Below, piece by piece: positions 15,812 to 60,877 of a DNA stretch of 64,000 nt. This stretch comes from Verrucomicrobiota bacterium (GTDB lineage: Bacteria; Verrucomicrobiota; Verrucomicrobiia; Limisphaerales; RI-55): positions 10,516-74,515 of the forward strand of contig JBDNGP010000028.1 in the NCBI GenBank assembly GCA_041689265.1, read 5' to 3'. Made by a program: the position numbers and the translations under genes. The notes below the pieces were generated by a model. It saw nothing but the letters and a program-made list of their open reading frames with translations, did no database searches and was not told where the DNA came from. How positions within the stretch are numbered: the first letter of the stretch is position 1; each line of letters begins with the position of its first letter.

Positions 15812-18800
15812 TTACTGTTGCAGCCACGGAAACTTGATCAGGACGCGATAAAATTCGTTGTCCGCATTCCCTTCGATCGGGGCGGTGTGGCTCTGGGCGC
15901 CGCTCTTCAACACCGGCGTCGGAACAGGCTGCCAGTTGATCAGGTTGATTGAGGACCACAGCTCGTAATCCACGCCAAAGGAACCGTCCCACTCCACCGC
16001 TGGCCCTACATTGGAATCAAAGGCCACTCGCATTTCACGAGGAGTGGCCGGAGGACCGGTAGGGATCAGCAGACTGTTTGAGGGATCGGTCCCGGCGAAC
16101 AGTTCCTCGGGGTCGAGGTAGCCATCACCATCCGTGTCGCCGCCCAGCGGCGAACCGAGACCACCCAGGAAGATTTGTTCCCAGGCGTCGGGCAGACCAT
16201 TGCCGTCGAGGTCCGCGTAACCAGCTTCCGGCATTGCGGTGATCTGGAACTCGAGCACCTCGATTTCACCGACAGTGCCGGCTGGCGGCGGACCGGGCAG
16301 CAGGAATCCACGCACGTCGGCGGTCGCGCCGGGGACAAGCCAGCCAGAGCCGGATGCGCGCACCGGCTTGCCGTCGGGCTTGAAGAGAGTGTAGCGGCCG
16401 CTGATCGTTTCCAGTTCCACGTCGTGCGCGTTGTAGGCGATCTCACCGGTGACTTCCACCTGTGGACGTGGATCAACGAGCGCCAACATCAGGTCGCGGA
16501 GGTTGATGGCCGTCGCCTGCACGATCGGAAACAGGTAACCGGCCGGCACCGGATCACCACTGATCAGCCGCCGGAGGGCGTCGATGGGCGGATCGAGTGG
16601 CGAGTCCGTTAGCGCGGCCAGCATCGCCTGGGCGAAGGCCGCCTCCGCCGCCCGACGCAACGGCTCGAACTCGGGTTCAAGCTGGATGGCCGTGTTGAGC
16701 AGTTGCCAGACCTGGGCGATATCGTGCCCCGGTTGCAACAGCGTCGCGGGTTGCTGGAGCGCGTCGATGTCCGCGGCACTCATGAAACCGACGGACGGCG
16801 AGTTCGGCGAATCCGCGAGTCGCGGCCGTTGTGTGAGCGAGGAGATGCGGCCGAGTTCGAGCAGTCGGCTGCCGTACCAGTATTCGATGATCACCGCCCC
16901 CATCGTGCTGGCGGGGCCGACGGTGAACTCCGGCGGCTTGGCGTGGAAATCGTCCAGCGCCGCCTGCGCCGCCACGAGCCAGGCGGCGACCGGGTCGGCG
17001 GCATTCAAGTCGATCGGGATCGCAGGCACAGGCGGAAACTCGATGCCTACCAATGCGGTCATGGCCGGCCCGAACCCGCCGATCCCCTCCACTGCGTAGC
17101 CGGCCGGAAACCAGGCCTGCTGAGATAGAATGCCGCGCTTCAACGTCACGTCCGAGACCCGGTGCAGGCCGGGAATCTTCGTGCCCTTCTGGGGCGCCTG
17201 CCCCGGGCTGGCCGGATCGGAGAAGAACAGGTCCTGATCATCCGCCGGCAACACCGCCGATAGCGCGTCGTTCCATACGAAGCTGAACAACCTTCCGTCG
17301 AACACCTTCACGTGAGGTCCGGCCCGACTGGCGGGATCGTTGGGATCACTGCCTCCGATCAGCTCCTTGAAGTCGCTGTCGCCGTCGCCATCGCTGTCGG
17401 CCTTCGTGAGATCGGTGCCCGCGAGCAACTCAATGGCATCGGGCACGCCGTCGCCATCGGCATCCGGTTGCTGATCGATGAAATAAGCGGCGGTCTGGAT
17501 TGGGCTCAGTGAGCCGCCATTGTGTTCGCCGTAGAATTCAACGGTTGCGCTCTGCGCCAGCCAGACCGGACCCGCACCGGTCTGCCATGCGCCGAGGTTG
17601 ACGCGATAGTGAGGGGTGACCCCGACGCCGGGTTGAAAACTTATCTGGATCGAGTTCGGATAGTTCCCGGCCGGCGGGTTGATCGCAACGGTTGCCAGTC
17701 CGTTGGCCACCGGAGAGCCGAAGTAGTAAAGGCTCGATGAACGCTCCCACTGGTTGCCGAGAGCCGTCGAGCCAGCTCCGGGCGCGATGCCGGGTTGGAG
17801 GCTCTGCGGCATGGGGCTGCCGAGGCCCGCTGCCGGGCCACCGAAGGTCTCGACCACGGCGTTGATCTGATTGCCGATGACTTGCGCGCCGGCCGCCCAG
17901 TTGCCGGCGGCAAAGGACTCGATCAACAACGGCGGCGTGCCCCCGAACGGTGTGCTGGTGTAGAGCGCCACCGTGACGTTGTCCTGTGCGGCCGGTGCGG
18001 CCGGCCAGTCGCCGGTCTTTACCAGCCCGTAGCCGGTCGGGCCTTCGGACCACAGTTGGAATTGCGCGGAGTTGCCGTTGGGATCGCTGGCGATCGTGAT
18101 CAGTTCACCGTCAGAGCCCACCGCTCCGGCGAATTGCAGCCCGGGCGGTGGAGTCAGTTGTTGCAGCAGCGTGAGCCCCTGACCGGGAGTGAAGTCGTAA
18201 CGGCGAAGCTCTCCATTCGCGAACACTACGAGCACTTCATCATCAACATCCGGCAGAAACTTCACCGACTGGACGGGGCTGCCCAGATCGATCCAAACGG
18301 AATCGCCGACGCCGTACGGGACCAGGGCAATCGTGCTGAGGCCATCGGCGAAGGCGAGGAACCAGCCGGGCTGCGTCGCTCCGTTCGGATAGCCGCTGGC
18401 GAGTTCGTTGAAAGCGTGGGTGAACGGGACCCGCCGGATGGAATTGCCGGGGCCATAACTCGGCACCGGGTTGCGGGCAAAAATGCTCAGCGTCGGCAAC
18501 CCGCCCGAACCGGCATCGCGGTGGAGCATCCCAATCCCGCCAGGAGTGGTTGAGGCCTTTAGGCCGCTGATCATTTTCGCACCTGGCAGGCCTTCCTGCG
18601 CGAACCCAGCCTGGTACGACGTGACGGGCGTGAGCGGTGTTCCCGTGACGAGGTTCCAACCGCGCAAACCCAGCTGCGACGAGCCGGCCGTGGCGATCAA
18701 AAGCTCAGCCGGGCCGCTGCTCGACCGTTGTCCGATCGCGACGGCCAGAGGGCCGGCCCCGACGTCAAACGTCTCGGGAACGATCTGCGGTTGATCGAGA

Positions 18801-19171
18801 GTGTGCCCCCAGATCACGAGCAGTTTGTTGGCGGCGTAGCCGGGGAGGATGAGGTCGTCGAGTTGGTCGTTGTTCAAATCGGCCGCCGTCAGGAAGCGGC
18901 CGTCGAAGTGACTCAGGTACCGCCGAATCGAGATGTATTTCCATTCCGGATCGGAACGCTCCAGGTGTCGTCCGATCGTGAGGATACCGGTGTCGTCATC
19001 GTAGACCGCCGCTGCTGATTCCCCGTCGATACCCTTGATGTCCAGAAGGAAGTCGACCGCTGAACGACCGGTGGACGGCGCCGCGATGAGCAACCATGCG
19101 AACAGCAAGCAGCAGATGGCGCGCAGCGATCGGCCCGGCAGAAGGCACGAGATGGAAGGCGATGTGTTCAT
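15812..19171 (-). CDS. Large secreted protein: FG-GAP-like N-terminal region, Fn3-associated/CHB_HEX-like domain, DxDGDG Ca-binding repeats, C-terminal FYRV domain; carries CIS-like peptide motifs
   Basis: ATG 19171 overlaps the upstream stop (ATGA). Signal-peptide-like N-terminus; AADLNNDQLDDL; INPPAGNY...SATVEFYG; DADGDGVPD, DSDGDG, DLDGNGLPDAWE; YELWSSINLINW...FYRV. Confidence 0.85.
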   Translation of the reverse strand: MNTSPSISCLLPGRSLRAICCLLFAWLLIAAPSTGRSAVDFLLDIKGIDGESAAAVYDDDTGILTIGRHLERSDPEWKYISIRRYLSHFDGRFLTAADLNNDQLDDLILPGYAANKLLVIWGHTLDQPQIVPETFDVGAGPLAVAIGQRSSSGPAELLIATAGSSQLGLRGWNLVTGTPLTPVTSYQAGFAQEGLPGAKMISGLKASTTPGGIGMLHRDAGSGGLPTLSIFARNPVPSYGPGNSIRRVPFTHAFNELASGYPNGATQPGWFLAFADGLSTIALVPYGVGDSVWIDLGSPVQSVKFLPDVDDEVLVVFANGELRRYDFTPGQGLTLLQQLTPPPGLQFAGAVGSDGELITIASDPNGNSAQFQLWSEGPTGYGLVKTGDWPAAPAAQDNVTVALYTSTPFGGTPPLLIESFAAGNWAAGAQVIGNQINAVVETFGGPAAGLGSPMPQSLQPGIAPGAGSTALGNQWERSSSLYYFGSPVANGLATVAINPPAGNYPNSIQISFQPGVGVTPHYRVNLGAWQTGAGPVWLAQSATVEFYGEHNGGSLSPIQTAAYFIDQQPDADGDGVPDAIELLAGTDLTKADSDGDGDSDFKELIGGSDPNDPASRAGPHVKVFDGRLFSFVWNDALSAVLPADDQDLFFSDPASPGQAPQKGTKIPGLHRVSDVTLKRGILSQQAWFPAGYAVEGIGGFGPAMTALVGIEFPPVPAIPIDLNAADPVAAWLVAAQAALDDFHAKPPEFTVGPASTMGAVIIEYWYGSRLLELGRISSLTQRPRLADSPNSPSVGFMSAADIDALQQPATLLQPGHDIAQVWQLLNTAIQLEPEFEPLRRAAEAAFAQAMLAALTDSPLDPPIDALRRLISGDPVPAGYLFPIVQATAINLRDLMLALVDPRPQVEVTGEIAYNAHDVELETISGRYTLFKPDGKPVRASGSGWLVPGATADVRGFLLPGPPPAGTVGEIEVLEFQITAMPEAGYADLDGNGLPDAWEQIFLGGLGSPLGGDTDGDGYLDPEELFAGTDPSNSLLIPTGPPATPREMRVAFDSNVGPAVEWDGSFGVDYELWSSINLINWQPVPTPVLKSGAQSHTAPIEGNADNEFYRVLIKFPWLQQ

Positions 19172-22100
19172 GGCTGAATCGGGTTGGAAGCGTTGACGAC
19201 GCGGGTCCGGAGGACCTCGATTGGTTCGCGGTCCTCGCCGTGAAGGACCACGGCCGCGCGGTAGTTGCGGTTGGCAATCAAGGGATGACGCACCCGGAAC
19301 CACAGGCAGGGCGGTTCGTTGATGCTCAACCCCCGGACGGCGAACGCGCGATCAATGATGTCGATTTGACCGGCAGCCGGAGACGTGGTGAGGATCTCAT
19401 CCACGTAGTGACTGACCTGCAACATCGTGCCGCGGCTGCCCGGATCGGTCTGATGCAGATACACCGTGAAGGCGAGCGGCACCTGCAGCCGCGGCGTCAG
19501 GTCATCAAGCAGGATGCGTGGCGGCGTGGGCGCGGACTGGCCGGGTTGCGATGAATTCACGACTTCACTCCAATCGAAGCATCCAACCCGAATCCACAGC
19601 TCGGTGGCCGGCTGCGGACCGGTTCCCGGAATGACATCGGTCCAGTTCACCAGCAGCGCTTCGAGCTCGCGGGCCGGGTCAATGATCAACGCGGGGACCG
19701 CGCGTGCCGGCCAGGGCACCGGGCAATCGACGGGTGGGCCGCCGCCGGCCGGGTCTTCTTGCAGCCAGGTGATCTGCAGTTCATCGCTCCACTCGCCCGC
19801 TTCGCGTTCGCCGTATGCGCCCAATCCCACGGCGCGCACGCGGGCGCGATAGTTCTTCCCGGATTCCAAGCCGAGGTTGATGGCGAAGTTTGGCGAATCA
19901 TCACCGAAGCCGATGGCCAGCCGTGGTGAATCCACGACGCCCCAGAACTCGCCCACACCTGCTTCGTTGCCATCCTGAAAGATGTGGGCAGCTCCGGGCG
20001 GTGGCGGCGTGAGCGACAATTCAAATCGGTCCACTCCCGGCCGCGGTGAGAACCACGCGATCACGGAATCGGTCACGGGTTGCCCCGGAACCACCGGTGC
20101 CGCCGGCATGAAATGAGTGAGGCGCGGCGTGGGGAACCCCTCGGTGCCCGGCGTGTCCACGCAGCCCACCAGCGTCAGCACGCTCGGGTTGCCATTGCGA
20201 TCGTAGTATTGCAGGAAGTAGCAGGCGCGTCCCGGATTTGCAGGCGGTGCCGTTTCACAGATGTTCGCGAGATCGGGCACACCGTCGCCGTTCGTGTCCA
20301 CCCGGGCGCGGTGCTGCAGCACGAGCGGGCCATCGTCGCCCAGCCGGCGGAAGAGAGCGGCATCCCACACCTCGGGTGGCATGCCTTCGATATTGACGCA
20401 GACATCGACCAACTCGCCGGTGTCCGGATCGACCGGATCAATGAAGCCACCTGGACAGCCAGATGATGAAGTGCTGCAGTTCAGGTCGCCATTCCAGATG
20501 TGCTCCGGGTAGTTCGGACCATTGAACTGGGGTTGCGTGCCGAACCAGGTTGAGACCTTGTCGTTGGCGGTGCCAAAGCGGGCCTGGAACCGTCCCGCTC
20601 CTGAAAACGCCGGTTGGGCAACGATCTGGTTTTGCGCGCGGAATTGATAGCGCCCCAGCAGATCACCGGAGAGCTGGTCACGAAACTCCACCCACGCAAT
20701 CCGATGGTTGAGGCGATTCGCAGTGAATCTCAGGGGTCCGAGGACTGTCGTGTTCAACGACTGATTAACGTCGATCTGGCAGCACGGCACGCGCAGGCGG
20801 CCCTGCGGTTCACCTGGACCGGCGAGGTCGTAGAGGGCGCCCGGCACTGGTCCGCTGGCTCCGCTCAGGTTGCCAAAACCGGCGGGCGACGGACAACTGG
20901 TCGCGTCCTCGGCGACGAGCACGAACCAGCGGGTGCGTCCGTCGTCCGCGGGAAGTTGTGAGGCACCCGGCGTGAGGTCGGCGATACTGACGCGTTCGCT
21001 TGTTCCAATGTTGTTGATGACGGCGATCCGGTTCGGCGTGGCGGGCCAGAGTGCAGAGGCGCGTTCGACGAAGGCGTCATCCGGGTTATCGAAACGGTAG
21101 AGATGGTAGCGCCGGACCTCGGCGGGATCATCTCGCAGCCAGCTGATCCGCAACGCGTGATCGGCCGCGCCTTCCTGTTTGTAAATGTTGTCCACGCGGA
21201 TGCGCGAGGGCGTGGCGGGCGGCATCCGGTCGCAAATTTGCACCGGCAGGCCGGAACTCGGATTGCCAATGCGTCCAAAATGGTCGAGCGCCGCGACGTA
21301 ATAGGTCGCCTGAAAGGCATCGGGGAACTCCACGCCGCCGGGTGCGAAGCCCGCTTGATCAGCCGAGTCGTTGTCGTCGGTGATGAAGAACGCGTCGTTC
21401 GCCGGCTGGACCGGGCAACCCAGTGGTGCCGTGATGACCACCGGCACACGGTTCACCGGGATTGCGAAGCCATTGTTCACGGCATCCAGAAGCGCGGCCC
21501 GCGATAGGTTGAGCGGCGGTTCAGCGCCATTGGCGGCGATCCATTGCTGGCGGGGAATGCGATACACTTGATAGCCGCTCCAGTGGAAGGCCATCTCACT
21601 GAGCGCCGCCGGCAGGCACCAACGGAGGTGCACGCGCAGGTGACCTCGTGGCGTGGCTTCCAGTTTCTCAGACAGGCCGCCGGGTGCGGGAAGGTAGGCC
21701 GGCGTGGCGGGCGTGGTGACCCGTCCGATCACCGGCCCTTCGACCTGAGTCACGGGATCAATGACGCGCACTTCGAAAGTGTTGAAACTGGTGTCGGGCA
21801 CGCGGGCGATGTAGGCGCGGCCCTCGGCCAGGTTGATTTGCGGATGCACGCGACGCATCGCCTCGCGTTGCTGCAGGTCGTAGCCGCCCGGCAAATCGGT
21901 GCTCAGAAATGCGGACAGCTTCTGTGCAAGACTGGGATAAGGGCCGGCGGCGAGGATGCCGTCCAGATCCTGGTCCAGTTTGACGTTGTTGAAGCCGGCC
22001 GCCGCCGCCCGCTCGAGCAAGGCATGCAAGGTGGGGGCGTGCGCCGTGGGAGTGAGGACGGCGAGCCGTAGGTAGTTGCCCGGGTCGGTGGCCAGTCCCT

Positions 22101-22326
22101 GCTTGTGATACACGGCGTAACCGGCGTGCTTGGTAGCGCCTTCCAGGAATTGCAACTGGATGAAAACGTAGCGGGTTCCGGGCGTGGCGACATTGCCGAC
22201 CTGCGCCACGGCCACGATCTTGGGCGTGGCGGCCTGCGTGTTGTCCGGGCCATTGAGGACGGCAACGCTCAAGGCCAGGGCAGCCAGCACGCTGCGTTGA
22301 ATGCGGCAAAGAGTAGAAGTGTTCAT
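19168..22326 (-). CDS. Large secreted protein with fibronectin type III-like domains
   Basis: Signal peptide ending TQA-A; FN3-like segments YYVAALDHFGRIGNPS...PPATP and LESGKNYRARVRAVG...EWS; several Cys pairs. Confidence 0.85.
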   Translation of the reverse strand: MNTSTLCRIQRSVLAALALSVAVLNGPDNTQAATPKIVAVAQVGNVATPGTRYVFIQLQFLEGATKHAGYAVYHKQGLATDPGNYLRLAVLTPTAHAPTLHALLERAAAAGFNNVKLDQDLDGILAAGPYPSLAQKLSAFLSTDLPGGYDLQQREAMRRVHPQINLAEGRAYIARVPDTSFNTFEVRVIDPVTQVEGPVIGRVTTPATPAYLPAPGGLSEKLEATPRGHLRVHLRWCLPAALSEMAFHWSGYQVYRIPRQQWIAANGAEPPLNLSRAALLDAVNNGFAIPVNRVPVVITAPLGCPVQPANDAFFITDDNDSADQAGFAPGGVEFPDAFQATYYVAALDHFGRIGNPSSGLPVQICDRMPPATPSRIRVDNIYKQEGAADHALRISWLRDDPAEVRRYHLYRFDNPDDAFVERASALWPATPNRIAVINNIGTSERVSIADLTPGASQLPADDGRTRWFVLVAEDATSCPSPAGFGNLSGASGPVPGALYDLAGPGEPQGRLRVPCCQIDVNQSLNTTVLGPLRFTANRLNHRIAWVEFRDQLSGDLLGRYQFRAQNQIVAQPAFSGAGRFQARFGTANDKVSTWFGTQPQFNGPNYPEHIWNGDLNCSTSSSGCPGGFIDPVDPDTGELVDVCVNIEGMPPEVWDAALFRRLGDDGPLVLQHRARVDTNGDGVPDLANICETAPPANPGRACYFLQYYDRNGNPSVLTLVGCVDTPGTEGFPTPRLTHFMPAAPVVPGQPVTDSVIAWFSPRPGVDRFELSLTPPPPGAAHIFQDGNEAGVGEFWGVVDSPRLAIGFGDDSPNFAINLGLESGKNYRARVRAVGLGAYGEREAGEWSDELQITWLQEDPAGGGPPVDCPVPWPARAVPALIIDPARELEALLVNWTDVIPGTGPQPATELWIRVGCFDWSEVVNSSQPGQSAPTPPRILLDDLTPRLQVPLAFTVYLHQTDPGSRGTMLQVSHYVDEILTTSPAAGQIDIIDRAFAVRGLSINEPPCLWFRVRHPLIANRNYRAAVVLHGEDREPIEVLRTRVVNASNPIQP

Positions 22327-22332
22327 GAGCGG

Positions 22333-25300
22333 TTAGAAGTCGACGGAAAGCGCGGGGTTGCTGCTGGTATCGAGAGTGACGCCGAAGTCGGAGTCCACCT
22401 TGATGCAGAAGGGGCACGGCCCAAGTTCGAGATCGGTTTCGATTTTGCCGAGCAGACTGGCTCCGTCCTGGGTTGCTGAGCCGCTGAGTTCGACGGCGCC
22501 GCTGCCCGAAAGCAGGCAGAGGAATTCGCCGCTGACTTCGCCCCGCAGGAAGCCGCCCACGCCGAAGTTAAAGTTCGAGTAGTCGGCCGGGTCGGATTGA
22601 AGAAAGCCAAAGGCGCCGACGCCCGCCCCCGCCTTGACCTTCAACAGGCAGCCGACGTCGTAGAAGGGAAACTTGCCGTTCACGCTGGCGATCACGCCGA
22701 TGAACGGCGGCGTCAACTGGTCCTGGATCAACTGCGGCGCCCACGCCGCGTAAGGCAAATTAGTGCAGGTGCGGCCGACGAAGAGCCCGCCGTGCATCGT
22801 GTAGTTGGAGAACGGCAGTTGCACCGGGCCGGAGCTGCCGAAGAGCGTCGCCTCGGCTTCGGCCGCGAGATAGAACTCGAAGTTGGCGGCGCCCTGGTTG
22901 GCGCTCACCGCAAGGGTCGCGCTCATCCGGTCGAAATTGACCGGCTGCAACGACAGACCGTCGGTCAAGGTTTCGAGGTTTCCTTTGAGACCAATCAGCT
23001 TGCCGCCGTCGGTGAAGGAAAACTGGGTCGAAAGCGTGATATTGACGTTGCCGAAGGGAACGTTGGCCGGAGCGACCGTGGCACCCATGGTGATGCGGTT
23101 GAACATCGCCGGAACCAGAGCCGGATCGCAGGCGGCCGCGCCGTCCGAATACAGTTGCTGGTATTCGAAGAAAGGATCGAGGGCGATGGCGATCGGCTGG
23201 GTGTGAATCACCGTGTGCGCGCGCAACGACAGGTAGGTCAGGTCCTGACCGGTGATGACGGCCTCACCCCGGAGGCTGGCCGCCTGGAGGTAATTGCCGA
23301 CGCCGGTGAGTTCACCCAACGTGCCGTCGAGATCGACCACCTCGGCAACCGCCTCGGTGATGGCTTCGTTGATCTGATCCAGCGCACTGGCGAGCACCTG
23401 CTTGACGAGGTGGTCCAGATGATAAAATCGGAAGCGCAGAACGTTCTGCACCTGGCTCATGACTGGCAGCGCGTAGATGCGTGCCTTCACCTCCGCCCGG
23501 ATGCGCGCTTCAATCTCCTCGACTGAGAACGAACCCGGATCGAGGGACACGGTTTCAAAGTAGTCCTCCAACGAATCCTGAACGTCCATCTGCAGTCCGG
23601 CAAACTCGACATTGGCACCCGTCAGCAGCCCATCCAGTTCGCCGTCGAGACCGGTGACGTTCTGCACCAGTTCGCGAAGTTCCTGCATGCGGGAGCGCAA
23701 TTCCTCCAACCGTTCCCGCATGGGACCCGCCTCGATGCCGGCGAGCTGGATCAGCTCGGGCACGCTCAACAGGTCAAACCCCTCGGGGAGATTCAAGAAA
23801 TCCATCGCCTGCTGCATGAAGCCGCCGACCTGAGCCTCCTCGCCGGGCGCAAGGAAAGCGCGCATGCCTTGCAGCCCGTCGCCGAGCGGGCCGAGCCGGT
23901 CAGTCACATTACCGGCCACGGCCTCGGCGATCAGGCTTTGCAGAGTCAGATTGAACTCAATCTTTTCCAGGGCACCAGCCGTGTCTTGCGTGGTCTTCAG
24001 CACGTTGGCTGCGGCCTGGATGAACGCGTTGTCAAAGATCGGGCTCAGCGCGACGTCCAGGGCTCCATCGACCTGTTGCGAGAGGAGACTGTCCAGTTCG
24101 TCGAGGCCGGCGTCGATGTCGGTGAACGCTGCGCCGACCGACAGATTGCCGAAGCCTTCCATAATTTCTCCGGTCGCGAGCTCGAGCGCGTTCGCAAAAA
24201 TGTTGTTCAGGCTGAGCCCGAACGTGGCGCCAAATTCGATGGCCGCCTCCCGGCCATTCAGGCGCGGCACATCGGCATCGGCCTCGGCGATGATGACGTT
24301 TATTTTTTTCTTCTCCAGCGAGCGGAAGGTGCGCGTGAGCGCGTCGTAGCTGACGGGAAAGTCGAACGGGATGATACCAAACCAGGTCTTCTCGGCGCGG
24401 GGCAGGTAAGTCTCGTTGTTGCTGGTAAGATAAGGCACGGGTTCGTCAAACGCGGGCGGGAGGCCCCGATGGACATTGTCGAACTCGATACTGCTGAAAT
24501 AGGTCTGGTTGTTGGCAGACCAGCCGCCTTGCATTCCCGGGATAACGTCCGGATCGAACGGGGGATTTTCGATGCCATGAATCTGCGCGTGAGTTTCCAT
24601 CGCCTCGAAATAGGGAAGAGCAACCATGCCCGCCACGTTGATCCAGCCCTCGTCGGCGGCCGGCGAAATGGGCGGATCGTTGTAGTAAGCGTGCCGCACC
24701 GGTTCGATGTGGTAGTCGCCGGCGAACGGGCTGGCGGAAGGCACGTGCAGGGCGCTCGCCGCGAGGGCGGTTTCCTTGCCGGTGGTCATGCGGCCGTTGC
24801 CCCGGAAGATCAACACGCCGTCGAGTTCTGCGGGAAAGCCGTTGGCACGGGCGCGGACGGCCAGTTCCAGACCGGAGTCGTCCATGGAACATGCGGCGGC
24901 GGACACGAAACGCGCGCTCTGGATCGCGATGCGGCTCTGCTGCCAGTAGGCGAGCTGGCGCACGGCCTCGCCTCCGGCGAGCGACATGCGATCCAACGCG
25001 CCGCAGCACTTGAACTCGATTTGATCAAACGCCAGCGAGAAGTCGGCCGGGTAAGGCAGCGTCAGGCCACCGGCGACCTGGCTGTGCTCGAACTGCGGCT
25101 GGTTGCCGATGAGTTGAAAGGCCCATTCATTGATCGTCATTGTGAACGGATCGGGCCCGCCCACCTGCACCGAAGGCGGCAGCGTCGCGGCGTCGGCCAC
25201 CCAGCGACCGCTCACACCGGAAGCGCGGGCATAGAGTTTCTGGCAGGTGTCGAGTTGATAGGGACCGAGCTGGCCACCACCGACGCGGGAAATTCCGTGC

Positions 25301-27147
25301 AACCCGGCGAAGCCCCGGAAGTTGGCGCCCGCATAATCGCCTGCACCCGCGAAATAGTCCGTCGTGCCGGGGTGTTCCAGGACATCGCCAGCGGCGGGAC
25401 GCAGGCCGGTGAGGAGCCAGCGGGCGGGATTGAACTCAGCCGGTTGTTCGCCTGGTTCATCGACCGTGTTGTTGCTGTCGTCCGTCCGGTCAAATCCATC
25501 CGCGGCGGCGACCACCGGGCCGGGAACAAGGATCTGGATGTTGTTGGCGACGTAGTTGTCCGTCTGATGCACGGGCAGTCCGGTGTCGGGATCAGTGCCC
25601 GAAGCAGCGCGACGCGTGATGATGAAGTCATCGAGCGGATTGGGATCGGCCACGGGCAGCCCTTCCGACCACAGGCTTCCTTGCGCGGTGAAACGCAAGG
25701 GCCGGGGACCTACTTGAAACCCTTCACGGGTCGCCGGATCGGGCAGGGTGTGCGGTGCATCCTCTGGCCGGCAGCCGCGATAGGTGATCATCGTGACGGT
25801 CGCCAGCGGGAAGGACGATTGCGCCGACAAGGGCTGGCTGTTCACCAGTTGCAGCGAGCCACCCGTGTGCGCGACGAAGCCGTGCGGGAAGTGGGTTGAG
25901 AAAACGCCGTTGGCAAACGTGAGCGTGGTGTTAAACCCGCCCGTCATGCCCGGTGCAATCAGGAGATCGCCGCTGGCGCTGGCGTTCAGGCGATCCCAGA
26001 AGCCGTCGTTGCTGTCGGGCAGTTCACCCTTAACTCCCGGGTCCTTCCATTGATCGAAATACCAGGCGCGGAAGAAGCGCGTGGCTGGCTGCGGCAGCCG
26101 CAGGTGGAAGAGATCCCACTGCCAGCCGGTGCCGGAAAATCCGACGGCCAGCCGCTCATCGACAAACTGGCGGGGCGCGTTGAAGGCACCCGTCGCGCCG
26201 CCGGACGGTTGAAAGTTCGCGCCCAGGTTCAGGACGACGCCTTCAGACGAGAACACCGGGTTGAGCATTTCTGTGGTGGCGGGGTTTAAGTCGTTCAGAC
26301 GCCAGCCCGTGCCCGGCGGCAACATCAGCGTGAAGGACTGCGCGAACATGCCGGCGGAATTGATCAGCACCGGTCCCAATCCCACCACCCAGCCGTTGAC
26401 GTTGAGCGGTCCCGGCGGCGGCGTCACATTGACCGAACCGGTGGTCAGCGTTGCCGCACCGGTAGCGTCGTTGCGGAGGACATCGATCGAAGCCGTGGCC
26501 GGCGCTCCGCTGTTGAAGGGGGCGCCACCGGCGAGCAGGCCGGACTGAATGAAGAGACGCCACGACTGGTCGGCGGCCAGTTTTACCGGTGCGCTGGAGA
26601 AGGAGAACATCGTGCCGCTCAGCCCGCCCAGGGAGAGGCTGCCATCGAAATGTCCAAAACTGTGCGGGCCGTTGATGACCGTGTGATCGGTCTGGATTGC
26701 GCCGCCGGGAGGATCGTCGTTGTGCAGGACCGAGACGACGATTTCGTAGTTCAGATCTTCACTGAGCACCACCGTGGGATCGAACTCCAGATTGACGGCC
26801 ACGGGCAGCGCGGCGACCACGCCGGGCACGAGAACGTTGACGGTCGTGTCCGCCGAACCGACGGACGTCGTCGTGCCGACCACGCGCAGGCGGGTGCGGA
26901 ATGTCACCGGAATGGTCCGGGCGAACGCGGCCGGCTGATTGCGACTCAGACCCACGGTGACCCCAAACCGGATCGTGTCGTTGGCCGAGTCGGTGTCGAG
27001 CAACCAGTTGTTGTCGAGCGTCACCTGCGGAATGGTCACGGTCACATTGGCAGGCGCGGCGACACCGGCGAACGGAGCGAACAGCAACGCCGTCAGCAAC
27101 ACCAGCCAGATTCGCGGATGACAGCCTGATTCGGATGAAATGTTCAT
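22333..27147 (-). CDS. Very large (1604 aa) secreted hypothetical protein
   Basis: Signal-peptide-like IWLVLLTALLFAPFAGVAA; beta-rich N- and C-terminal regions flank an acidic helical region. Start set at ATG 27147. Confidence 0.85.
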   Translation of the reverse strand: MNISSESGCHPRIWLVLLTALLFAPFAGVAAPANVTVTIPQVTLDNNWLLDTDSANDTIRFGVTVGLSRNQPAAFARTIPVTFRTRLRVVGTTTSVGSADTTVNVLVPGVVAALPVAVNLEFDPTVVLSEDLNYEIVVSVLHNDDPPGGAIQTDHTVINGPHSFGHFDGSLSLGGLSGTMFSFSSAPVKLAADQSWRLFIQSGLLAGGAPFNSGAPATASIDVLRNDATGAATLTTGSVNVTPPPGPLNVNGWVVGLGPVLINSAGMFAQSFTLMLPPGTGWRLNDLNPATTEMLNPVFSSEGVVLNLGANFQPSGGATGAFNAPRQFVDERLAVGFSGTGWQWDLFHLRLPQPATRFFRAWYFDQWKDPGVKGELPDSNDGFWDRLNASASGDLLIAPGMTGGFNTTLTFANGVFSTHFPHGFVAHTGGSLQLVNSQPLSAQSSFPLATVTMITYRGCRPEDAPHTLPDPATREGFQVGPRPLRFTAQGSLWSEGLPVADPNPLDDFIITRRAASGTDPDTGLPVHQTDNYVANNIQILVPGPVVAAADGFDRTDDSNNTVDEPGEQPAEFNPARWLLTGLRPAAGDVLEHPGTTDYFAGAGDYAGANFRGFAGLHGISRVGGGQLGPYQLDTCQKLYARASGVSGRWVADAATLPPSVQVGGPDPFTMTINEWAFQLIGNQPQFEHSQVAGGLTLPYPADFSLAFDQIEFKCCGALDRMSLAGGEAVRQLAYWQQSRIAIQSARFVSAAACSMDDSGLELAVRARANGFPAELDGVLIFRGNGRMTTGKETALAASALHVPSASPFAGDYHIEPVRHAYYNDPPISPAADEGWINVAGMVALPYFEAMETHAQIHGIENPPFDPDVIPGMQGGWSANNQTYFSSIEFDNVHRGLPPAFDEPVPYLTSNNETYLPRAEKTWFGIIPFDFPVSYDALTRTFRSLEKKKINVIIAEADADVPRLNGREAAIEFGATFGLSLNNIFANALELATGEIMEGFGNLSVGAAFTDIDAGLDELDSLLSQQVDGALDVALSPIFDNAFIQAAANVLKTTQDTAGALEKIEFNLTLQSLIAEAVAGNVTDRLGPLGDGLQGMRAFLAPGEEAQVGGFMQQAMDFLNLPEGFDLLSVPELIQLAGIEAGPMRERLEELRSRMQELRELVQNVTGLDGELDGLLTGANVEFAGLQMDVQDSLEDYFETVSLDPGSFSVEEIEARIRAEVKARIYALPVMSQVQNVLRFRFYHLDHLVKQVLASALDQINEAITEAVAEVVDLDGTLGELTGVGNYLQAASLRGEAVITGQDLTYLSLRAHTVIHTQPIAIALDPFFEYQQLYSDGAAACDPALVPAMFNRITMGATVAPANVPFGNVNITLSTQFSFTDGGKLIGLKGNLETLTDGLSLQPVNFDRMSATLAVSANQGAANFEFYLAAEAEATLFGSSGPVQLPFSNYTMHGGLFVGRTCTNLPYAAWAPQLIQDQLTPPFIGVIASVNGKFPFYDVGCLLKVKAGAGVGAFGFLQSDPADYSNFNFGVGGFLRGEVSGEFLCLLSGSGAVELSGSATQDGASLLGKIETDLELGPCPFCIKVDSDFGVTLDTSSNPALSVDF

Positions 27148-27228
27148 AATCTCGGCAAACAACGCGGGTCGGCAGAATTCAGCGAAGAGCGCGCGAACGC
27201 CGTTACCCAAGACGGTTCATGTATAGGC

Positions 27229-37962: not shown

Positions 37963-39456
37963 ATGCCACCCACACTAACTTATCCCGGAGTTTACATCGA
38001 GGAAGTCCCCAGCGGCGTCCGCACCATCAGCGGGGTCGCCACCTCCATCGCGCTGTTCATCGGATGGGCCGCCCGCGGCCCCACGGATCGCGCAGTTCGC
38101 CTGACGAGCTTTTCCGATTTGGAGCGGCAATTCGGCGGGCTTGATCTGCGCACGCTTCTGCCCTACTCGGTGAAGCAATTCTACGACAACGGCGGCGGCG
38201 ACGCCTACGTGCTGCGCATCGCGGACGCGGCCACCTCCGATTCCGCTTCTGCGGTGGTGGGCGATCTTACCTACACCGCCAGTTCCCCCGGTGCCTGGGC
38301 CAACTCTTACAGCATCCGCACCACACCCCGCGCCGTGCCGAATGCCGACCGCTTCCGACTGGATGTGATTTTCGAGCCAGCCAACAACGCGGTGGTCGAA
38401 TCGTTCGAAAACCTGTCTGCGAGCGCGGCTGACCCGCGTTATATCGAAACGATGGTCAACCGGCGCTCACAGTTCATCTCAGTGGCCGCGGCCGCGGCCG
38501 CAGCGGCGCCCGGGCTGGCTACGACTCCTCTTGATAACGACACCGCAGGTGACGATGGCAACGTCCTCGGACCCGCAGATGCCGCCTTTCGGACGGCACT
38601 GCTCGCATTGTTCGGCTTGGGCACGATCACGGATCGAATCGACCTTTTTAATCTGGTCTGTGTCCCCGGTCTGATCGATGCATCGACCATCACCACGCTG
38701 CAAGGACACTGCCGCCGCCGTCGCGCCTTTCTAATCGTGGACAGTCCGGACGGTGAAACGGTCTCCAACATGCCCGGCAATGTAACTCCGTTGGCCGGCC
38801 CCGACGGGATGAATGCCGCGTTGTTTTATCCCTGGGTGCGTTCGCCCGATCCGATACAGGAACGCGCGCTGCGCGATTTCCCTCCGTGCGGGTTCGTGGC
38901 CGGCGTGTGTGCGCGAACGGACGCGCAACGCGGGGTTTGGAAAGCCCCGGCCGGGAGCGAAGCCGGTCTCAACGGCGCTGCGGGCCTCGCCATTGTAATG
39001 AGTGAGGCTGAGAACGGTCAGTTGAATCCGCTGGGGATCAACTGCCTGCGCACACTTCCAGTGTTCGGCTCCGTTCTGTGGGGTGCTCGAACTCTGCACG
39101 GCGACAACGCCCGCGGTTCCGAATGGAAATACATCCCGGTCCGGCGCACGGCGTTGTTCATCGAAGAGAGTCTTTATCGCGGCACGCAGTGGGTCGTGTT
39201 CGAACCCAATGATGAACCACTCTGGGCCCAGATCCGGCTGAATATCGGTGCTTTCCTGCAGAACCTATTTCGTCAGGGTGCGTTTCAAGGCCGGACGCCG
39301 CGCGAGGCTTACTTCGTGAAGTGCGATTCCGAGACCACCACCCAGAACGACATCAACCAGGGTATCGTCAACATTCACGTGGGATTTGCTCCGCTGAAAC
39401 CCGCCGAGTTTGTCGTCCTTCGCATCCAGCAGATTGCCGGTCAACTTGAATCCTGA
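37963..39456 (+). CDS. Contractile tail sheath protein (eCIS)
   Basis: YPGVYIEE, PPCGFVAG, RGVWKAPAG, LNPLGINCLR, WGARTL, EWKYIPVRR, VFEPND, APLKPAEFV. Confidence 0.97.
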   Translation: MPPTLTYPGVYIEEVPSGVRTISGVATSIALFIGWAARGPTDRAVRLTSFSDLERQFGGLDLRTLLPYSVKQFYDNGGGDAYVLRIADAATSDSASAVVGDLTYTASSPGAWANSYSIRTTPRAVPNADRFRLDVIFEPANNAVVESFENLSASAADPRYIETMVNRRSQFISVAAAAAAAAPGLATTPLDNDTAGDDGNVLGPADAAFRTALLALFGLGTITDRIDLFNLVCVPGLIDASTITTLQGHCRRRRAFLIVDSPDGETVSNMPGNVTPLAGPDGMNAALFYPWVRSPDPIQERALRDFPPCGFVAGVCARTDAQRGVWKAPAGSEAGLNGAAGLAIVMSEAENGQLNPLGINCLRTLPVFGSVLWGARTLHGDNARGSEWKYIPVRRTALFIEESLYRGTQWVVFEPNDEPLWAQIRLNIGAFLQNLFRQGAFQGRTPREAYFVKCDSETTTQNDINQGIVNIHVGFAPLKPAEFVVLRIQQIAGQLES

Positions 39457-39470
39457 ACCCCAAAAAAGCC

Positions 39471-39995
39471 ATGGCACAATTTAGCGTCAACGCGAACCGA
39501 TTCGATCCCTACAAAAACTTCAAATTCCGTGTGAAATGGGACGGCCGCTACGTGGCCGGCGTCAGCAAAATGGGCGCACTCAAGCGGACCACCGAGGTCG
39601 TGAAACACCGCGAAGGCGGCGACCCCAGTTCGAGCCGAAAATCTCCCGGGCGGACGGAGTTCGAAGCCATCAGCCTGGAACGCGGCGTCACCCATGACAC
39701 CGAGTTTGAGAAATGGGCCAACAAGGTCTGGAACTTCGGTTCCGGTCTCGGCGCGGAGGTGTCCCTGAAGGACTTCCGCAAGGACCTCATCATCGAAGTT
39801 TACAACGAAGCGGGCCAGCAGGTTCTCGCGTACAAGGTTTACCGTTGCTGGGTTTCTGAATTCCAAGCACAGGCGGATCTGGACGCCAACGCCAACGCGA
39901 TCCTGATCCAGTCGCTCAAGCTGGAGAACGAAGGTTGGGAACGCGACTACGACGTAACCGAGCCGGCCGAGCCGTCGTTCGTCGAACCGGCCTGA
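39471..39995 (+). CDS. Tail tube protein (T4 gp19-like, Afp1/5-like)
   Basis: DPYKNFKFRV, REGG, KSPGRTEFEAISLERG, LDANANAILIQSLKL. Confidence 0.95.
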   Translation: MAQFSVNANRFDPYKNFKFRVKWDGRYVAGVSKMGALKRTTEVVKHREGGDPSSSRKSPGRTEFEAISLERGVTHDTEFEKWANKVWNFGSGLGAEVSLKDFRKDLIIEVYNEAGQQVLAYKVYRCWVSEFQAQADLDANANAILIQSLKLENEGWERDYDVTEPAEPSFVEPA

Positions 39996-40058
39996 TGAAA
40001 GGAGCCATCGACGTTGGAGCGCGGACGACACGTCCGCCAAGTTCCAATTTCTGTGATC

Positions 40059-40793
40059 ATGCGCGCACTCACTGAACCGGACATTCTGAACCTGTGGGAT
40101 CAGGCCGCGAACCAGCATCCGCTCGATCGGGCCTTGACGATTCTGCAGGCGGCAGACCCGGCGATGGAACGGGCGTCCGCAGCACGGCGGACGATCGGCG
40201 AACGTGACCGCCAATTGCTACACGTCAGCGAGTCGACTTTTGGTCCCGTGATGGACGTTGTGACTCATTGCCCGAAGTGCGCCGGGGAGATCGAATTCCA
40301 GTTTCAGACCGACGAAATTCATGCACCGAAGAGCGCCGCCGCCCGGCCGGTTCATGAACTGATTCACGAAGATTGGCGCGTCCGGTTCAGGTTGCCCGAC
40401 AGCCGGGACCTCGCTGCGCTTTTGCAGACGGACGAAACGCAAGATCCGGAGCAGCGGCTAATGTCGCGTTGCCTGATATCTGCGGAATGCGACAGAGCGA
40501 ACCGCGACGCGGCGGATGTGCCGACGTCGTTGTGGGACGACCTGTCCGTCGAGATGTCGAAGCTCGATCCGCAGGCAGAAATTGATTTTTCACTCGCGTG
40601 CCCCGCGTGCGGCCATCAGTGGAAGGCGTGGTTCGATATCGCGGATTTTCTCTGGCGCAAAGTTTCCGTGACAGCGCAGCTGTTGCTGCGGGAAGTGGAC
40701 GCACTGGCCCGCACCTATCATTGGAGCGAATCGCAGATCCTCGCGCTCAGCCCGGCCCGGCGTCGGGCCTATCTCGAACTGATCCAAACATGA
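40059..40793 (+). CDS. eCIS-associated protein with two CxxC motifs (T4 gp26/baseplate-hub-like or assembly chaperone)
   Basis: CPKC, FRLP, LDPQAE, CPACG, LARTYHWSESQILALSPARRRAYL; start set at ATG 40059. Confidence 0.7.
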   Translation: MRALTEPDILNLWDQAANQHPLDRALTILQAADPAMERASAARRTIGERDRQLLHVSESTFGPVMDVVTHCPKCAGEIEFQFQTDEIHAPKSAAARPVHELIHEDWRVRFRLPDSRDLAALLQTDETQDPEQRLMSRCLISAECDRANRDAADVPTSLWDDLSVEMSKLDPQAEIDFSLACPACGHQWKAWFDIADFLWRKVSVTAQLLLREVDALARTYHWSESQILALSPARRRAYLELIQT

Positions 40794-44849: not shown

Positions 44850-45223
44850 CCCTGACTCCTCAAATCCGATTACCGACTCCCGCCCGGTCCCCGGCGGTGA
44901 AGCCGGGATTTGACGCAACGCCGCAGAATGGCCGTCGACAAACCGCTGTGACCGGCAATGCCGAACCAAACCGCGCGGCGGTTCAAATGCAGATTGATGA
45001 ACTGGTGTTGCACGGGTTCGCCACGTCGCAACGTCACGCGATCAAGGACGCGGTTGAGCAGGAACTCACCCGGCAACTTTCCCTTCGCCGGGTTTCAGCG
45101 CCGGACGCGGACCGGTCCATTCCGTTTGTTGATGCCGGGCGTCTCAGTTTATCCAACGAGCTGACATCCGCCGAGATCGGTCGGCGCATCGCCAAAGCGA
45201 TACTGGGAGGGATGTTGCCATGA
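44846..45223 (+). CDS. Small eCIS-associated hypothetical protein
   Basis: Translationally coupled on both sides; VQMQIDELVLHGF...IGRRIAKAI. Confidence 0.7.
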   Translation: MTLTPQIRLPTPARSPAVKPGFDATPQNGRRQTAVTGNAEPNRAAVQMQIDELVLHGFATSQRHAIKDAVEQELTRQLSLRRVSAPDADRSIPFVDAGRLSLSNELTSAEIGRRIAKAILGGMLP

Positions 45224-50016: not shown

Positions 50017-50046
50017 CGGTGTAGCACTCAAAAAATAACTGTAACC

Positions 50047-52706: not shown

Positions 52707-52708
52707 CC

Positions 52709-60852: not shown

Positions 60853-60877
60853 GAAAACGCCATCCCCCAATATCATT

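What the first reader, a model, noticed from the sequence alone, without database searches (positions are those of the whole stretch)
15812..19171. Secreted protein studded with short signature peptides of unrelated contractile-injection-machine proteins
Seen in the sequence (minus strand): AVDFLLDIKGIDGES (19016-19060), SDPEWKYISIRRY (18917-18955), FLPDVDDEVLVVFANG (18212-18259), KIPGLHRVSDVTLKRGI (17129-17179) and, more weakly, RDAGSGGLPT (18491-18520), VTSYQ (18611-18625) and LRGWN (about 18653-18667). From family knowledge these resemble the Hcp N-terminus (AVDxFLKxDGIxGES), the sheath motif (DPEWxYxxVRR), the gp5/VgrG OB-fold motif (LPEVGDEVLVxFxxG), the gp19-type tube motif (KxPGxxKxxDVTLKRG), further Hcp motifs (RDxxSGLPTG, VTSY) and the hub motif (VRGWD). 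Each match is only 5-17 aa and similarity stops abruptly; the scaffold is an FG-GAP-like/Fn3/DxDGDG extracellular protein. Four or more strong motifs from one machine class in one non-homologous protein looks non-random. Inference: an undescribed peptide-mosaic system, for example micro-fragment capture of CIS/phage-tail DNA into a surface protein, decoy or mimicry that interferes with contractile machines, or docking tags for the eCIS about 19 kb away.
Basis: partly seen in the sequence, partly recalled or inferred. Interest (0 to 1): 0.92.

Follow-up and report, generated by a model that had tools for sequence, protein, structure and literature searches.

The report
Injection-machine peptide patches in a secreted protein
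An exported calcium-binding propeller protein belongs to a clade whose members carry short stretches identical to hallmark pieces of contractile injection machines; in this copy the stretches are weak and sit in core strands, and why they exist is not known.

Summary
All seven peptides are at the stated coordinates in one gene (15812-19171, minus; 1119 aa). It has a Sec signal peptide, an FG-GAP propeller, an Ig-like domain, TSP3 calcium repeats, two beta domains, a helical domain and a C-terminal sandwich.

In this protein alone the resemblance is borderline. Pfam gives two sub-threshold hits (Phage_base_V E 0.025, CIS_tube E 0.0081). BLAST and my own Hcp model do not lift it above reversed controls.

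In its clade the effect is real. Pfam hits to six CIS families recur in 17 of 21 close relatives, against at most 1 of 37 distant members and 0 of 5 genomic ones. I compared 161 family proteins from other organisms with all 21,942 ORFs of this genome. Seven ORFs scored above every reversed control. Two are true domain homologues. The other five are two Hcp-like proteins, the gp19 tube, CIS_tube and the DUF4157 protein.

The patches lie in core strands of non-CIS folds and sit at different scaffold sites in different lineages. They are reshuffled by recombination between family alleles. They persist in a genome with no detected eCIS, so docking to the neighbouring eCIS is not supported. Mechanism and function remain open.

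The parts
15812..19171 (-). Gene for P0001 (1119 aa plus stop). The ATG at 19171 overlaps the stop of the upstream gene (ATGA).
19061..19171 (-). Sec-type signal peptide, residues 1-37. The cleavage site is inferred, not predicted by a tool.
   Evidence: Sequence; pLDDT below 50 for residues 1-34
17732..19060 (-). Beta-propeller with degenerate FG-GAP blades, residues 38-480. Holds the Hcp-like (38-52), sheath-like (73-85), LRGWN (169-173), VTSYQ (183-187), RDAGSGGLPT (218-227) and gp5-like (305-320) peptides.
19016..19060 (-). AVDFLLDIKGIDGES, the first strand after the signal peptide (E41-46 and the start of E52-58). It aligns with the 'EFxxxGDFDGDG' first FG-GAP blade of distant homologues.
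   Evidence: 11/17 identical to a real Hcp, 26.6 bits, within noise
18917..18955 (-). SDPEWKYISIRRY, strand E76-81. The window's own sheath has EWKYIPVRR.
18212..18259 (-). FLPDVDDEVLVVFANG, a hairpin (E312-317, turn, E322-328). Sub-threshold Phage_base_V match. It is a conserved 'DRLLVLFxDGxxAVYDF' hairpin across the whole family.
17477..17689 (-). Ig-like domain (CHB_HEX_C_1 / Fn3_assoc type in homologues), residues 495-565.
17327..17473 (-). First block of TSP3 calcium-binding repeats, residues 567-615.
17045..17296 (-). Beta domain, residues 626-709, holding the gp19-like hairpin.
17129..17179 (-). KIPGLHRVSDVTLKRGI (E671-678, RG turn, E683-688). gp19-like. Clearer in relatives: P0004 is 14/21 identical to the window's tube protein.
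16484..16993 (-). Helical domain, residues 727-896.
16697..16726 (-). HDIAQVWQLL, a degenerate form of the DUF4157-type 'AHELxHVVQQ' helix that relatives carry. The catalytic E and the second H are lost here.
16235..16462 (-). Beta domain, residues 904-979. Foldseek gave weak OB-fold matches to the mid-part, but which of its two beta domains they cover is not known. Contains the CIS_tube-like hairpin at 920-940 (nt 16352-16414).
16067..16219 (-). Second block of TSP3 repeats, residues 985-1035.
15815..16039 (-). C-terminal beta-sandwich, residues 1045-1119. Together with the TSP3 block, this module ends many unrelated large proteins of the phylum.
19168..22326 (-). Upstream operon gene, 1052 aa, signal peptide, no Pfam family. 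58% identical to its counterpart in an Opitutia MAG.
22333..27210 (-). First operon gene, 1625 aa, no Pfam family. 53% identical to its counterpart in the same MAG.
37963..64000 (+). The eCIS locus that supplied comparison sequences. It is not shown to be linked to the gene. Contents: sheath 37963-39456, gp19 tube 39471-39995, Pvc16_N, AAA, DUF4157 protein 45220-50016, CIS_tube 50047-50703, gp5 OB 52194-52706, gp25, Baseplate_J x2 and others.

Best explanation
P0001 is an exported, calcium-binding, multi-domain surface or extracellular protein. It is the last gene of a conserved three-gene operon of very large exported proteins, and it belongs to a large verrucomicrobial family of about 1150-aa proteins.

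In one clade of that family, short stretches of 9-23 residues have been rewritten into sequences identical or nearly identical to the most conserved blocks of contractile-injection proteins: Hcp, gp19 tube, CIS_tube, sheath, gp5 OB, PAAR-like and the DUF4157 HExxH helix. The rewritten stretches lie at ordinary scaffold positions: propeller strands, hairpins of the beta domains and one helix. The clade-level enrichment is shown.

The rest is inferred. The patches arose by short-patch replacement or by strong selection at sites whose scaffold sequence already resembled the motif. They were then inherited and reshuffled by homologous recombination between family alleles. In P0001 they are eroded remnants that now serve only as core strands of its own fold. 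P0001 itself therefore most likely acts with its two operon partners as a surface structure or adhesin, not as a part or partner of the neighbouring eCIS.
For: Architecture and family:
- Pfam and NCBIfam give TSP3 repeats in P0001. Distant members give FG-GAP and CHB_HEX_C_1.
- 2,457 relatives at E<=1e-3.
- AlphaFold models are confident: pLDDT 88 for the whole protein and 93.7 for residues 616-990.
- The operon is conserved in an Opitutia MAG at 53-58% identity.

Patches are real in the clade:
- Pfam CIS-family hits occur in 17 of 21 individually scanned close relatives.
- At most 1 of the 37 other members of alignment A3 has such a hit, and 0 of 5 genomic distant members.
- BLAST of the family against 20 real Hcps at >=26 bits: 34 real, 2 reversed, 4 shuffled. 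At >=30 bits: 9, 0, 0.
- Seven hits to my own Hcp HMM exceed every control hit.
- Exact 8-mers shared with the 21,942 ORFs of this genome: the top ORFs are the window's DUF4157 protein (9), a family paralogue, and the window's CIS_tube (5).
- After filtering, 7 ORFs score >=32 bits against 0 in the reversed control. Five are CIS proteins and two are true domain homologues.
- Other recipients show nothing. For 4,733 ORFs of this genome the maximum is 28.6 bits against 30.4 reversed. For 40 unrelated secreted proteins of the phylum the maximum is 21.6 bits. For 11 distant genomic members the maximum is 25.7 bits.

Patches are scaffold elements:
- DSSP of the models.
- Alignment with distant members.

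Erosion and reshuffling:
- P0001 has HDIAQ where relatives have HELAH.
- Identity between close homologues changes block by block. For example P0004 versus P0005 is 45% over 291-480 and 83% over 621-780.

Independence from a resident eCIS.
Against:
- Neutral patching from anywhere in a genome would not pick only CIS donors, so some selection or a specific link to CIS genes is still needed and is unexplained.
- PHROGs phage-tail models give no hit in 22 clade members.
- hhalign against the window's own CIS proteins gives only 0.1-14.5% probability.
- Clade members are related, so the counts across them are not independent events. I count about 8-12 independent sites.
- The Pfam control on 35 unrelated proteins was uninformative, because only 25 of 129 families were listed.
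Confidence: 0.45

Rival explanations
1. Functional strand mimicry. The clade displays copies of the strands and loops that build CIS tubes, sheaths and spikes, so that the exported protein can pair with such proteins, cap them or anchor them. Candidate partners are the Sec-exported Hcp-like proteins of the same cell, or tubes and spikes arriving from other cells or phages.
For: - The donors are exclusively CIS proteins.
- The same CIS_tube-like hairpin occurs at three different scaffold sites in different lineages. The same Hcp loop, GQATGKRQHKP, occurs at two different sites in P0032 and P0159.
- P0032 differs from its 66%-identical relative P0282 exactly in the patch that equals CIS_tube.
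- In several members the mature N-terminus after signal-peptide cleavage is an Hcp-type first strand.
- This genome and the nearest genomic relative both encode Hcp-family proteins. This genome's five copies all carry signal peptides.
- 6 of 20 family-bearing genomes have PF05638, against 24 of 381 others. Kinship and genome size confound this.
Against: - In the model of P0001 the segments are regular strands of folded domains, and solvent exposure could not be computed.
- The copied blocks are fold-core or active-site blocks of their families. Whether they are interface blocks is only recalled, not tested.
- 14 of 20 family-bearing genomes showed no Hcp.
- The patches decay in P0001, P0006 and P0010.
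Confidence: 0.25
2. No special process. The matches are convergent beta-hairpin grammar, plus a genuine zincin-type HExxH helix, plus selection bias by the reader and by me.
For: - The family scaffold already has proto-motifs at the sites. 'F...GDFDGDG' resembles Hcp 'FLKIDGIDGES'. 'DRLLVLFxDG' resembles gp5 'GDEVLVxFxxG' and the DUF1559 'LFADGSVRF'.
- P0001 alone is within noise.
- PHROGs shows nothing.
- Karlin-Altschul expectation for 33-35-bit ungapped matches in the search space is above 1. That is my arithmetic, not a tool result.
Against: - It cannot explain why all five unexplained top ORFs out of 21,942 are CIS proteins.
- It cannot explain runs of 8-13 identical residues: VRITDFSITEE, LLAHELTHVVQQ, TGKRQHKP, or HDKWID followed by DWG in a 14/23-identical match.
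- Distant members with the same fold lack the hits.
Confidence: 0.2
3. Hidden true homology. Parts of the protein are diverged CIS domains, for example a tube-like beta domain at 626-709 and a DUF4157 peptidase core at about 780-830.
For: - hhalign aligns 628-682 colinearly with residues 18-74 of the window's tube, at 14.5% probability.
- Three members reach Pfam's own cut-off: P0004 for Phage_base_V (24.4 against 23.8 bits), and P0024 and P0283 for eCIS_core (23.3 and 22.8 against 22 bits).
- In P0024 the eCIS_core match spans profile positions 37-75.
Against: - Foldseek on a confident model of 616-990 finds no tube, Hcp or zincin. PDB and BFVD give only weak OB-fold matches at E>=2e-3.
- The gp5-like site lies in a propeller blade.
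- The same motif sits at different sites in different members.
- Most of the family lacks the HExxH.
Confidence: 0.06
4. Docking tags or decoys for the eCIS encoded 19 kb downstream in the same genome.
For: - Proximity: the gene ends at 19171 and the eCIS starts at 37963.
- The window's own sheath and tube carry the matching motifs.
Against: - Only 1 of 8 family-bearing genomes among 151 sampled has a gp19 tube.
- The nearest genomic relative keeps the operon and the CIS-like hits in a genome where no gp19 or Pvc16 was found.
- P0001 is Sec-exported, whereas eCIS particles assemble in the cytoplasm. The second point is established knowledge, as stated in the passages of PMC8213781 read.
Confidence: 0.04

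Closest known systems
FG-GAP/VCBS propeller proteins with bacterial TSP3 calcium repeats (Pfam FG-GAP_3, TSP3_bac). NCBIfam's nearest named proteins are CglD and MtsD of Myxococcus.
   Same: Signal peptide, FG-GAP blades, Ig-like domain and two TSP3 blocks. The CglD and MtsD matches cover only the TSP3 repeats.
   Different: The middle part (two beta domains plus a helical domain) has no Pfam family and no clear structural neighbour. One clade carries CIS-identical peptides.
DUF4157 / eCIS_core ('PVC-metallopeptidase'), an eCIS core domain with HExxH.
   Same: Relatives carry '(L)LAHELTHVVQQ', up to 13 residues identical to the window's DUF4157 protein. Two relatives reach Pfam's cut-off. Passages of PMC8213781 describe the domain as eCIS-specific with an HExxH motif.
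   Different: Only the last 20-39 of 79 profile positions match. The motif lies in the middle of a Sec-exported protein, is degenerate in P0001, and is absent from most of the family.
Hcp (PF05638), including the signal-peptide-bearing Hcp-like paralogues of this genome.
   Same: Several family members carry Hcp blocks: first strand, HDKWIDxLxxDWG, TGKRQHKP, and the last strands.
   Different: The blocks sit between ordinary FG-GAP blades, so there is no Hcp domain. P0001's own Hcp-like peptides do not exceed controls.
Mosaic surface-protein genes shaped by recombination between alleles (recalled as a general class; no paper read).
   Same: Block-wise changes of identity between close homologues.
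   Different: That process shuffles homologous alleles. It does not explain peptides shared with non-homologous CIS proteins.

Membership tests
FG-GAP propeller / TSP3 exported protein family (this family) | Full-length alignment with about 1150-aa relatives | tested here: met
   117 relatives at E<=1e-30, many matching over nearly the whole length; alignments A1, A2, A4
FG-GAP propeller / TSP3 exported protein family (this family) | TSP3 calcium repeats above Pfam's cut-off | tested here: met
   TSP3_bac 38.3 bits against cut-off 25, 3 stretches
FG-GAP propeller / TSP3 exported protein family (this family) | FG-GAP repeats above Pfam's cut-off in P0001 itself | tested here: not met
   No FG-GAP hit in P0001 at E<=10. 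Present in 34 of 42 distant members. A propeller fold is predicted.
T6SS_HCP (PF05638) | Profile match over the domain | tested here: not met
   No Pfam hit in P0001-P0010. My own Hcp HMM gives -2.6 bits for P0001, below controls.
Phage_T4_gp19 tube (PF06841) | Profile match at or above 28.2 bits over the 134-position domain; tube fold | tested here: not met
   No hit in P0001. Relatives reach 12.8-17.2 bits over at most 37 positions. No tube among the Foldseek matches.
Phage tail sheath (PF04984 / PF17482) | Profile match to the sheath domains | tested here: not met
   No Pfam hit. Only an 18-column hhalign match at 6.2% probability.
Phage_base_V gp5/VgrG OB domain (PF04717) | Profile match at or above 23.8 bits; OB fold at the site | tested here: not met
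   P0001 scores 15.4 bits over 22 of 75 positions. The site is a propeller hairpin. P0004 reaches 24.4 bits, but also over only 26 positions.
CIS_tube (PF19266) | Profile match at or above 27 bits | tested here: not met
   16.4 bits over 21 of 158 positions
eCIS_core / DUF4157 (PF13699) | HExxH motif and profile match at or above 22 bits | tested here: not met
   P0001 reads HDIAQ and has no Pfam hit. Relatives P0024 (23.3 bits) and P0283 (22.8 bits) pass on partial matches.
eCIS accessory or docking protein | Co-occurrence with eCIS genes across genomes | tested here: not met
   1 of 8 family-bearing genomes among 151 has PF06841. In G151 neither PF06841 nor PF14065 was found; the PF14065 search had no positive control.
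eCIS accessory or docking protein | Physical binding to CIS parts | not testable with these tools
   Needs pull-down or cryo-EM

The most novel reading that the evidence does not exclude
A clade of exported propeller proteins is a true peptide mosaic. Hallmark strands and loops of contractile-injection proteins (Hcp, tube, sheath, spike, PAAR, PVC-metallopeptidase) are repeatedly grafted into a non-homologous scaffold and kept by selection. This gives the cell an extracytoplasmic protein that pairs with, caps or traps tube-type assemblies by strand mimicry. The targets could be its own Sec-exported Hcp-like proteins, or incoming T6SS, eCIS or phage-tail parts.
Probability: 0.25. Interest if true: 0.9.

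Novelty: categorically new. Interest (0 to 1): 0.72.

Why it matters
If the patches are functional, this would be a new way for bacteria to deal with contractile machines, or to build on exported Hcp-like proteins: copying the machines' own conserved strands into an unrelated exported scaffold.

If the patches are only traces of recombination, they still show a donor-specific short-patch process between non-homologous genes that has no description I could find. Two searches aimed at such peptides returned nothing on CIS-derived peptides in FG-GAP proteins. Two searches on signal-peptide Hcp-like proteins returned nothing relevant by their listings.

There is also a practical point. Sub-threshold, and even just-above-threshold, Pfam hits to Phage_base_V and eCIS_core in these proteins are not domains.

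For this particular gene the message is more modest. It is an ordinary-looking surface protein carrying faded copies of the patches.

Tried and rejected
- PDB sequence search. P0001 alone gave 0 hits at E<=10. The A1 profile gave 2 weak, irrelevant hits.
- Foldseek. The whole model matches only propellers. The mid-part gives only weak OB-fold matches in PDB and BFVD, so the idea of a split tube fold was rejected.
- hhalign of A1 against the window's DUF4157 protein, tube, sheath, CIS_tube and gp5 gave probabilities of 5.0, 14.5, 6.2, 0.1 and 0.1%.
- Recent gene conversion from the window's eCIS was rejected for P0001.
- PHROGs gave no tail family in 22 clade members. The control set was scanned.
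- The Pfam control on 35 unrelated secreted proteins was uninformative because the list was cut at 25 of 129 families. I replaced it with BLAST controls.
- ESM Atlas on P0024 640-1000 gave no usable hit.
- Complex prediction of P0001 35-490 with a G000 Hcp-like protein returned no verdict. It counts neither for nor against binding.
- Metagenome scans for the contigs of P0032 and P0004 found nothing.
- The 'VRGWD' hub motif and the solvent exposure of the peptides were not tested.
- Supplements of PMC8213781 were not opened. They may list DUF4157 architectures that bear on the DUF4157 comparison.

Full report
THE GENE

The region is one ORF on the minus strand, 15812-19303. The likely start is the ATG at 19171, which overlaps the stop of the upstream gene. 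This gives P0001, 1119 aa.

The N-terminus is a Sec-type signal peptide, read from the sequence. Pfam finds TSP3 calcium repeats above threshold.

Two genes upstream on the same strand (19168-22326 and 22333-27210) encode proteins of 1052 and 1625 aa with no Pfam family. A complete eCIS locus lies on the plus strand from 37963 to the window's end. It holds sheath, gp19 tube, Pvc16_N, AAA, a DUF4157 protein, CIS_tube, gp5 OB, gp25, two Baseplate_J proteins and others.

FAMILY AND FOLD

P0001 has nine close homologues at 40-70% identity. It belongs to a large family: 2,457 proteins at E<=1e-3, of which 117 are at E<=1e-30, mostly about 1150 aa long. Record titles place the relatives in Verrucomicrobiota. 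The nearest genomic relative is an Opitutia MAG.

AlphaFold models are confident, with pLDDT 88 for the whole protein and 93.7 for residues 616-990. They show:
- a propeller at 40-480
- an Ig-like domain at 495-565
- a TSP3 block
- a beta domain at 626-709
- a helical domain at 727-896
- a beta domain at 904-979
- a second TSP3 block
- a beta-sandwich at 1045-1113

Foldseek finds propellers for the whole model. For the middle part it finds only weak OB-fold matches at E>=2e-3, with no tube, Hcp or zincin, in both PDB and BFVD.

- 38-52: first strands of the propeller
- 73-85: a strand
- 305-320: a hairpin
- 665-681: a hairpin
- 816-825: a helix

In distant homologues the N-terminal site reads 'EFxxxGDFDGDGRxD', an FG-GAP blade. 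The 305-320 site reads 'DRLLVLFxDGxxAVYDF'. Those two sites are therefore conserved scaffold elements whose sequence has shifted.

IS P0001 ITSELF UNUSUAL?

Only weakly.
- At E<=10 Pfam lists four families for it. Two are CIS families: Phage_base_V at 303-324 (E 0.025) and CIS_tube at 920-940 (E 0.0081).
- Its Hcp-like, sheath-like and gp19-like peptides give no Pfam hit.
- An Hcp HMM built from 20 verrucomicrobial Hcps scores P0001 at -2.6 bits, below the best reversed control.
- phmmer with the genome's own eCIS proteins does not list it among the reported targets.
- Its best short match to 35 CIS proteins is 26.6 bits. That ranks 5th of 4,733 ORFs, but reversed ORFs reach 30.4 bits.
- Its motif-coding DNA shows no tract copied from the window's sheath or tube genes.

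THE CLADE IS UNUSUAL

Pfam at E<=10 was run protein by protein on 21 close relatives: P0001-P0010, P0014-16, P0024-26, P0030, P0032, the L056 protein, P0282 and P0283. It gives sub-threshold hits, and in three cases just-above-threshold hits, to Phage_base_V, Phage_T4_gp19, CIS_tube, eCIS_core, T6SS_HCP or Tox-PAAR-like in 17 of the 21. P0002, P0006, P0010 and P0282 have none. Four members also hit DUF1559 at the 305-320 site.

Alignment A3 holds 42 more distant members. Its CIS hits tally to 11, and 10 of them belong to P0024, P0025, P0026, P0030 and P0032. At most one of the other 37 members has a CIS hit. Five distant genomic members have none.

The same motif can sit at different scaffold sites. 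A CIS_tube-like hairpin is at 920-945 in P0001, P0004 and P0007, at 663-691 in P0025 and P0026, and at 813-831 in P0032.

TESTS WITH REAL SEQUENCES AND CONTROLS

Against the window's 15 eCIS proteins, the counts at >=26 bits are 60 (real), 33 (reversed) and 33 (shuffled). Individual matches include:
- P0004 'STARKKPGRTTFSNITLERGV', 14/21 identical to the tube
- P0032 'LPVRITDFSITEEPFGAGL', 14/19 identical to CIS_tube
- P0024 'EEPQGSELMAHELTHVVQQ', 12/19 identical to the DUF4157 protein

A search for PF05638 showed that this genome encodes five Hcp-family ORFs, all with signal peptides. Against 20 verrucomicrobial Hcps, the family gives 34 matches at >=26 bits, compared with 2 (reversed) and 4 (shuffled). 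At >=30 bits the counts are 9, 0 and 0. Examples:
- P0027 'GFGSSAGDANHDKWIDILAIDWG' (38 bits)
- P0032, P0159 and P0282 '(G)QATGKRQHKP'
- P0030 'EEHHYYTISLVNATIASV', beside the C337 copy's 'ETEHHYTITLVNARISSI' (Pfam T6SS_HCP E 0.1; compared by eye)
- P0002 'VDYFLKLDGVDGESTD'

These stretches sit between ordinary FG-GAP blades, so they are patches and not an Hcp domain.

I then ran an unbiased donor test. It used 161 family proteins from other organisms, with the genome's own copies left out and the calcium loops masked. They were compared with all 21,942 ORFs of at least 100 aa in this genome.
- For exact 8-mers, the top ORFs are the window's DUF4157 protein (9), a family paralogue on C10, and the window's CIS_tube (5). 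The remaining ORFs share 1-3, many of them low-complexity.
- For short ungapped matches after entropy and repeat filters, 7 ORFs reach >=32 bits, against 0 in the reversed control. They are a PA14-like true homologue, a true homologue of the C-terminal domain, two Hcp-like ORFs, the gp19 tube, CIS_tube and the DUF4157 protein.

The recipient side was also controlled. The rest of this genome's proteome is no better than reversed sequence. Forty unrelated secreted proteins of the phylum reach only 21.6 bits. Eleven distant genomic family members reach 25.7 bits.

Results against the effect:
- PHROGs phage models show no tail family in 22 clade members.
- hhalign probabilities are low.
- Clade members are kin, so the independent events number perhaps 8-12.

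VARIATION AND LINKAGE

Identity among the ten close homologues changes block by block. For example, P0004 versus P0005 is 45% over 291-480 and 83% over 621-780. P0005 drops to 47-57% over 781-900. This shows recombination between family alleles. The gp5-like and H-X9-DG-like hairpins are two allelic forms of the 291-480 block.

P0032 differs from its 66%-identical relative P0282 exactly at the CIS_tube patch: 'LPVRITDFSITEEPF' against 'TAVTDSDLALLEEPQ'.

There is no tie to a resident eCIS.
- The full-length family occurs in 8 of 151 sampled genomes, and PF06841 in 3 of 151. Only G000 has both.
- The Opitutia MAG (G151) keeps the three-gene operon at 53-58% identity.
- Its protein still hits eCIS_core (2.1e-4), Phage_base_V (5.5e-4) and gp19 (0.035).
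- Neither PF06841 nor PF14065 was found in that genome. The PF14065 search had no positive control.
- G151 does have two Hcp-family genes.
- In a 401-genome sample, 20 genomes have the family and 30 have PF05638. Six have both. This is a modest association, confounded by kinship and genome size.

READING

What is shown:
- The gene is an exported multi-domain calcium-binding protein in a conserved operon.
- Its clade shares short, sharply bounded peptides specifically with CIS proteins.
- The peptides occupy core elements of non-CIS folds.
- They vary by lineage and are shuffled by recombination.
- They do not depend on a resident eCIS.

What is inferred: how the patches arose (short-patch replacement or convergent selection at proto-motif sites), and whether they do anything.

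My best reading, at 0.45, is that P0001 carries eroded relics and works as a surface protein. Strand mimicry towards tube-type proteins, possibly the exported Hcp-like paralogues, remains open at 0.25. Plain coincidence stands at 0.2. It fits P0001 alone but not the clade data.

Literature read:
- Passages of PMC8213781 on DUF4157.
- Search listings only. None describes such peptides.

Noticed in passing
Genome contigs outside the window: C115:28449-28832(+), C115:29022-29300(+), C332:885-1265(-), C332:1459-1854(-), C337:4247-4636(+): Five Hcp-family (PF05638) ORFs, all preceded by Sec-type signal peptides. Four of the five lie as two adjacent pairs, near contig ends or on a very short contig. 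The mature N-termini start with the Hcp first strand. My tblastn with the window's eCIS sheath and tube found no second CIS locus; T6SS sheath families were not searched. Exported Hcp-like proteins were not found in two literature searches.
   Followed up: partly
window 39471-39995 (+): The eCIS gp19-type tube protein is 84-93% identical to the other 119 of the best 120 database proteins listed. Their source names span Anaerolineae, Rubrivivax, Azonexus, Caldilineaceae and Limisphaerales. This is an extremely conserved or recently mobile eCIS lineage.
   Followed up: no
window 19168-27210 (-): Two giant exported proteins (1052 and 1625 aa) with no Pfam, NCBIfam or other family form a conserved operon with P0001. 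Counterparts at 58% and 53% identity occur in an Opitutia MAG (L056).
   Followed up: partly
window 28495-32049 (+): A Ser/Thr protein kinase fused to a long WD40 propeller array (1184 aa) is transcribed divergently from the three-gene operon.
   Followed up: no
Genome contig C18:20429-22339 (-): A paralogue (P0010, 634 aa, 66% identical over residues 492-1118) consists of the C-terminal half only. It has no propeller and no signal peptide. A further family fragment lies on C10:3336-4173.
   Followed up: partly
P0001 residues 985-1119 (window 15815-16219) and many loci: The TSP3 block plus the C-terminal beta-sandwich ending in 'FYRV/FFRL' terminates many unrelated large proteins. Most matches in the 89 of 151 sampled genomes that matched the family profile cover only this module. 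It may be a sorting or anchoring module.
   Followed up: no
P0002, P0003, P0005, P0006, P0007 at the position of P0001 residues 300-325: These alleles carry 'HSSGANFLFADGSVRFYDF'. It matches the H-X9-DG C-terminal motif of DUF1559 (SBP_bac_10) pilin-like proteins (Pfam E 0.007-0.14 in 4 of them). This is a non-CIS example of the same kind of short resemblance.
   Followed up: partly
L125 (G232:C6) residues 15-26 of the family member: A distant family member from a genome that has Hcp genes carries 'SGLPTGARVFRP', beside the Hcp loop 'SGLPTGRRIYKP' (26 bits). This is a possible further patch outside the main clade.
   Followed up: no
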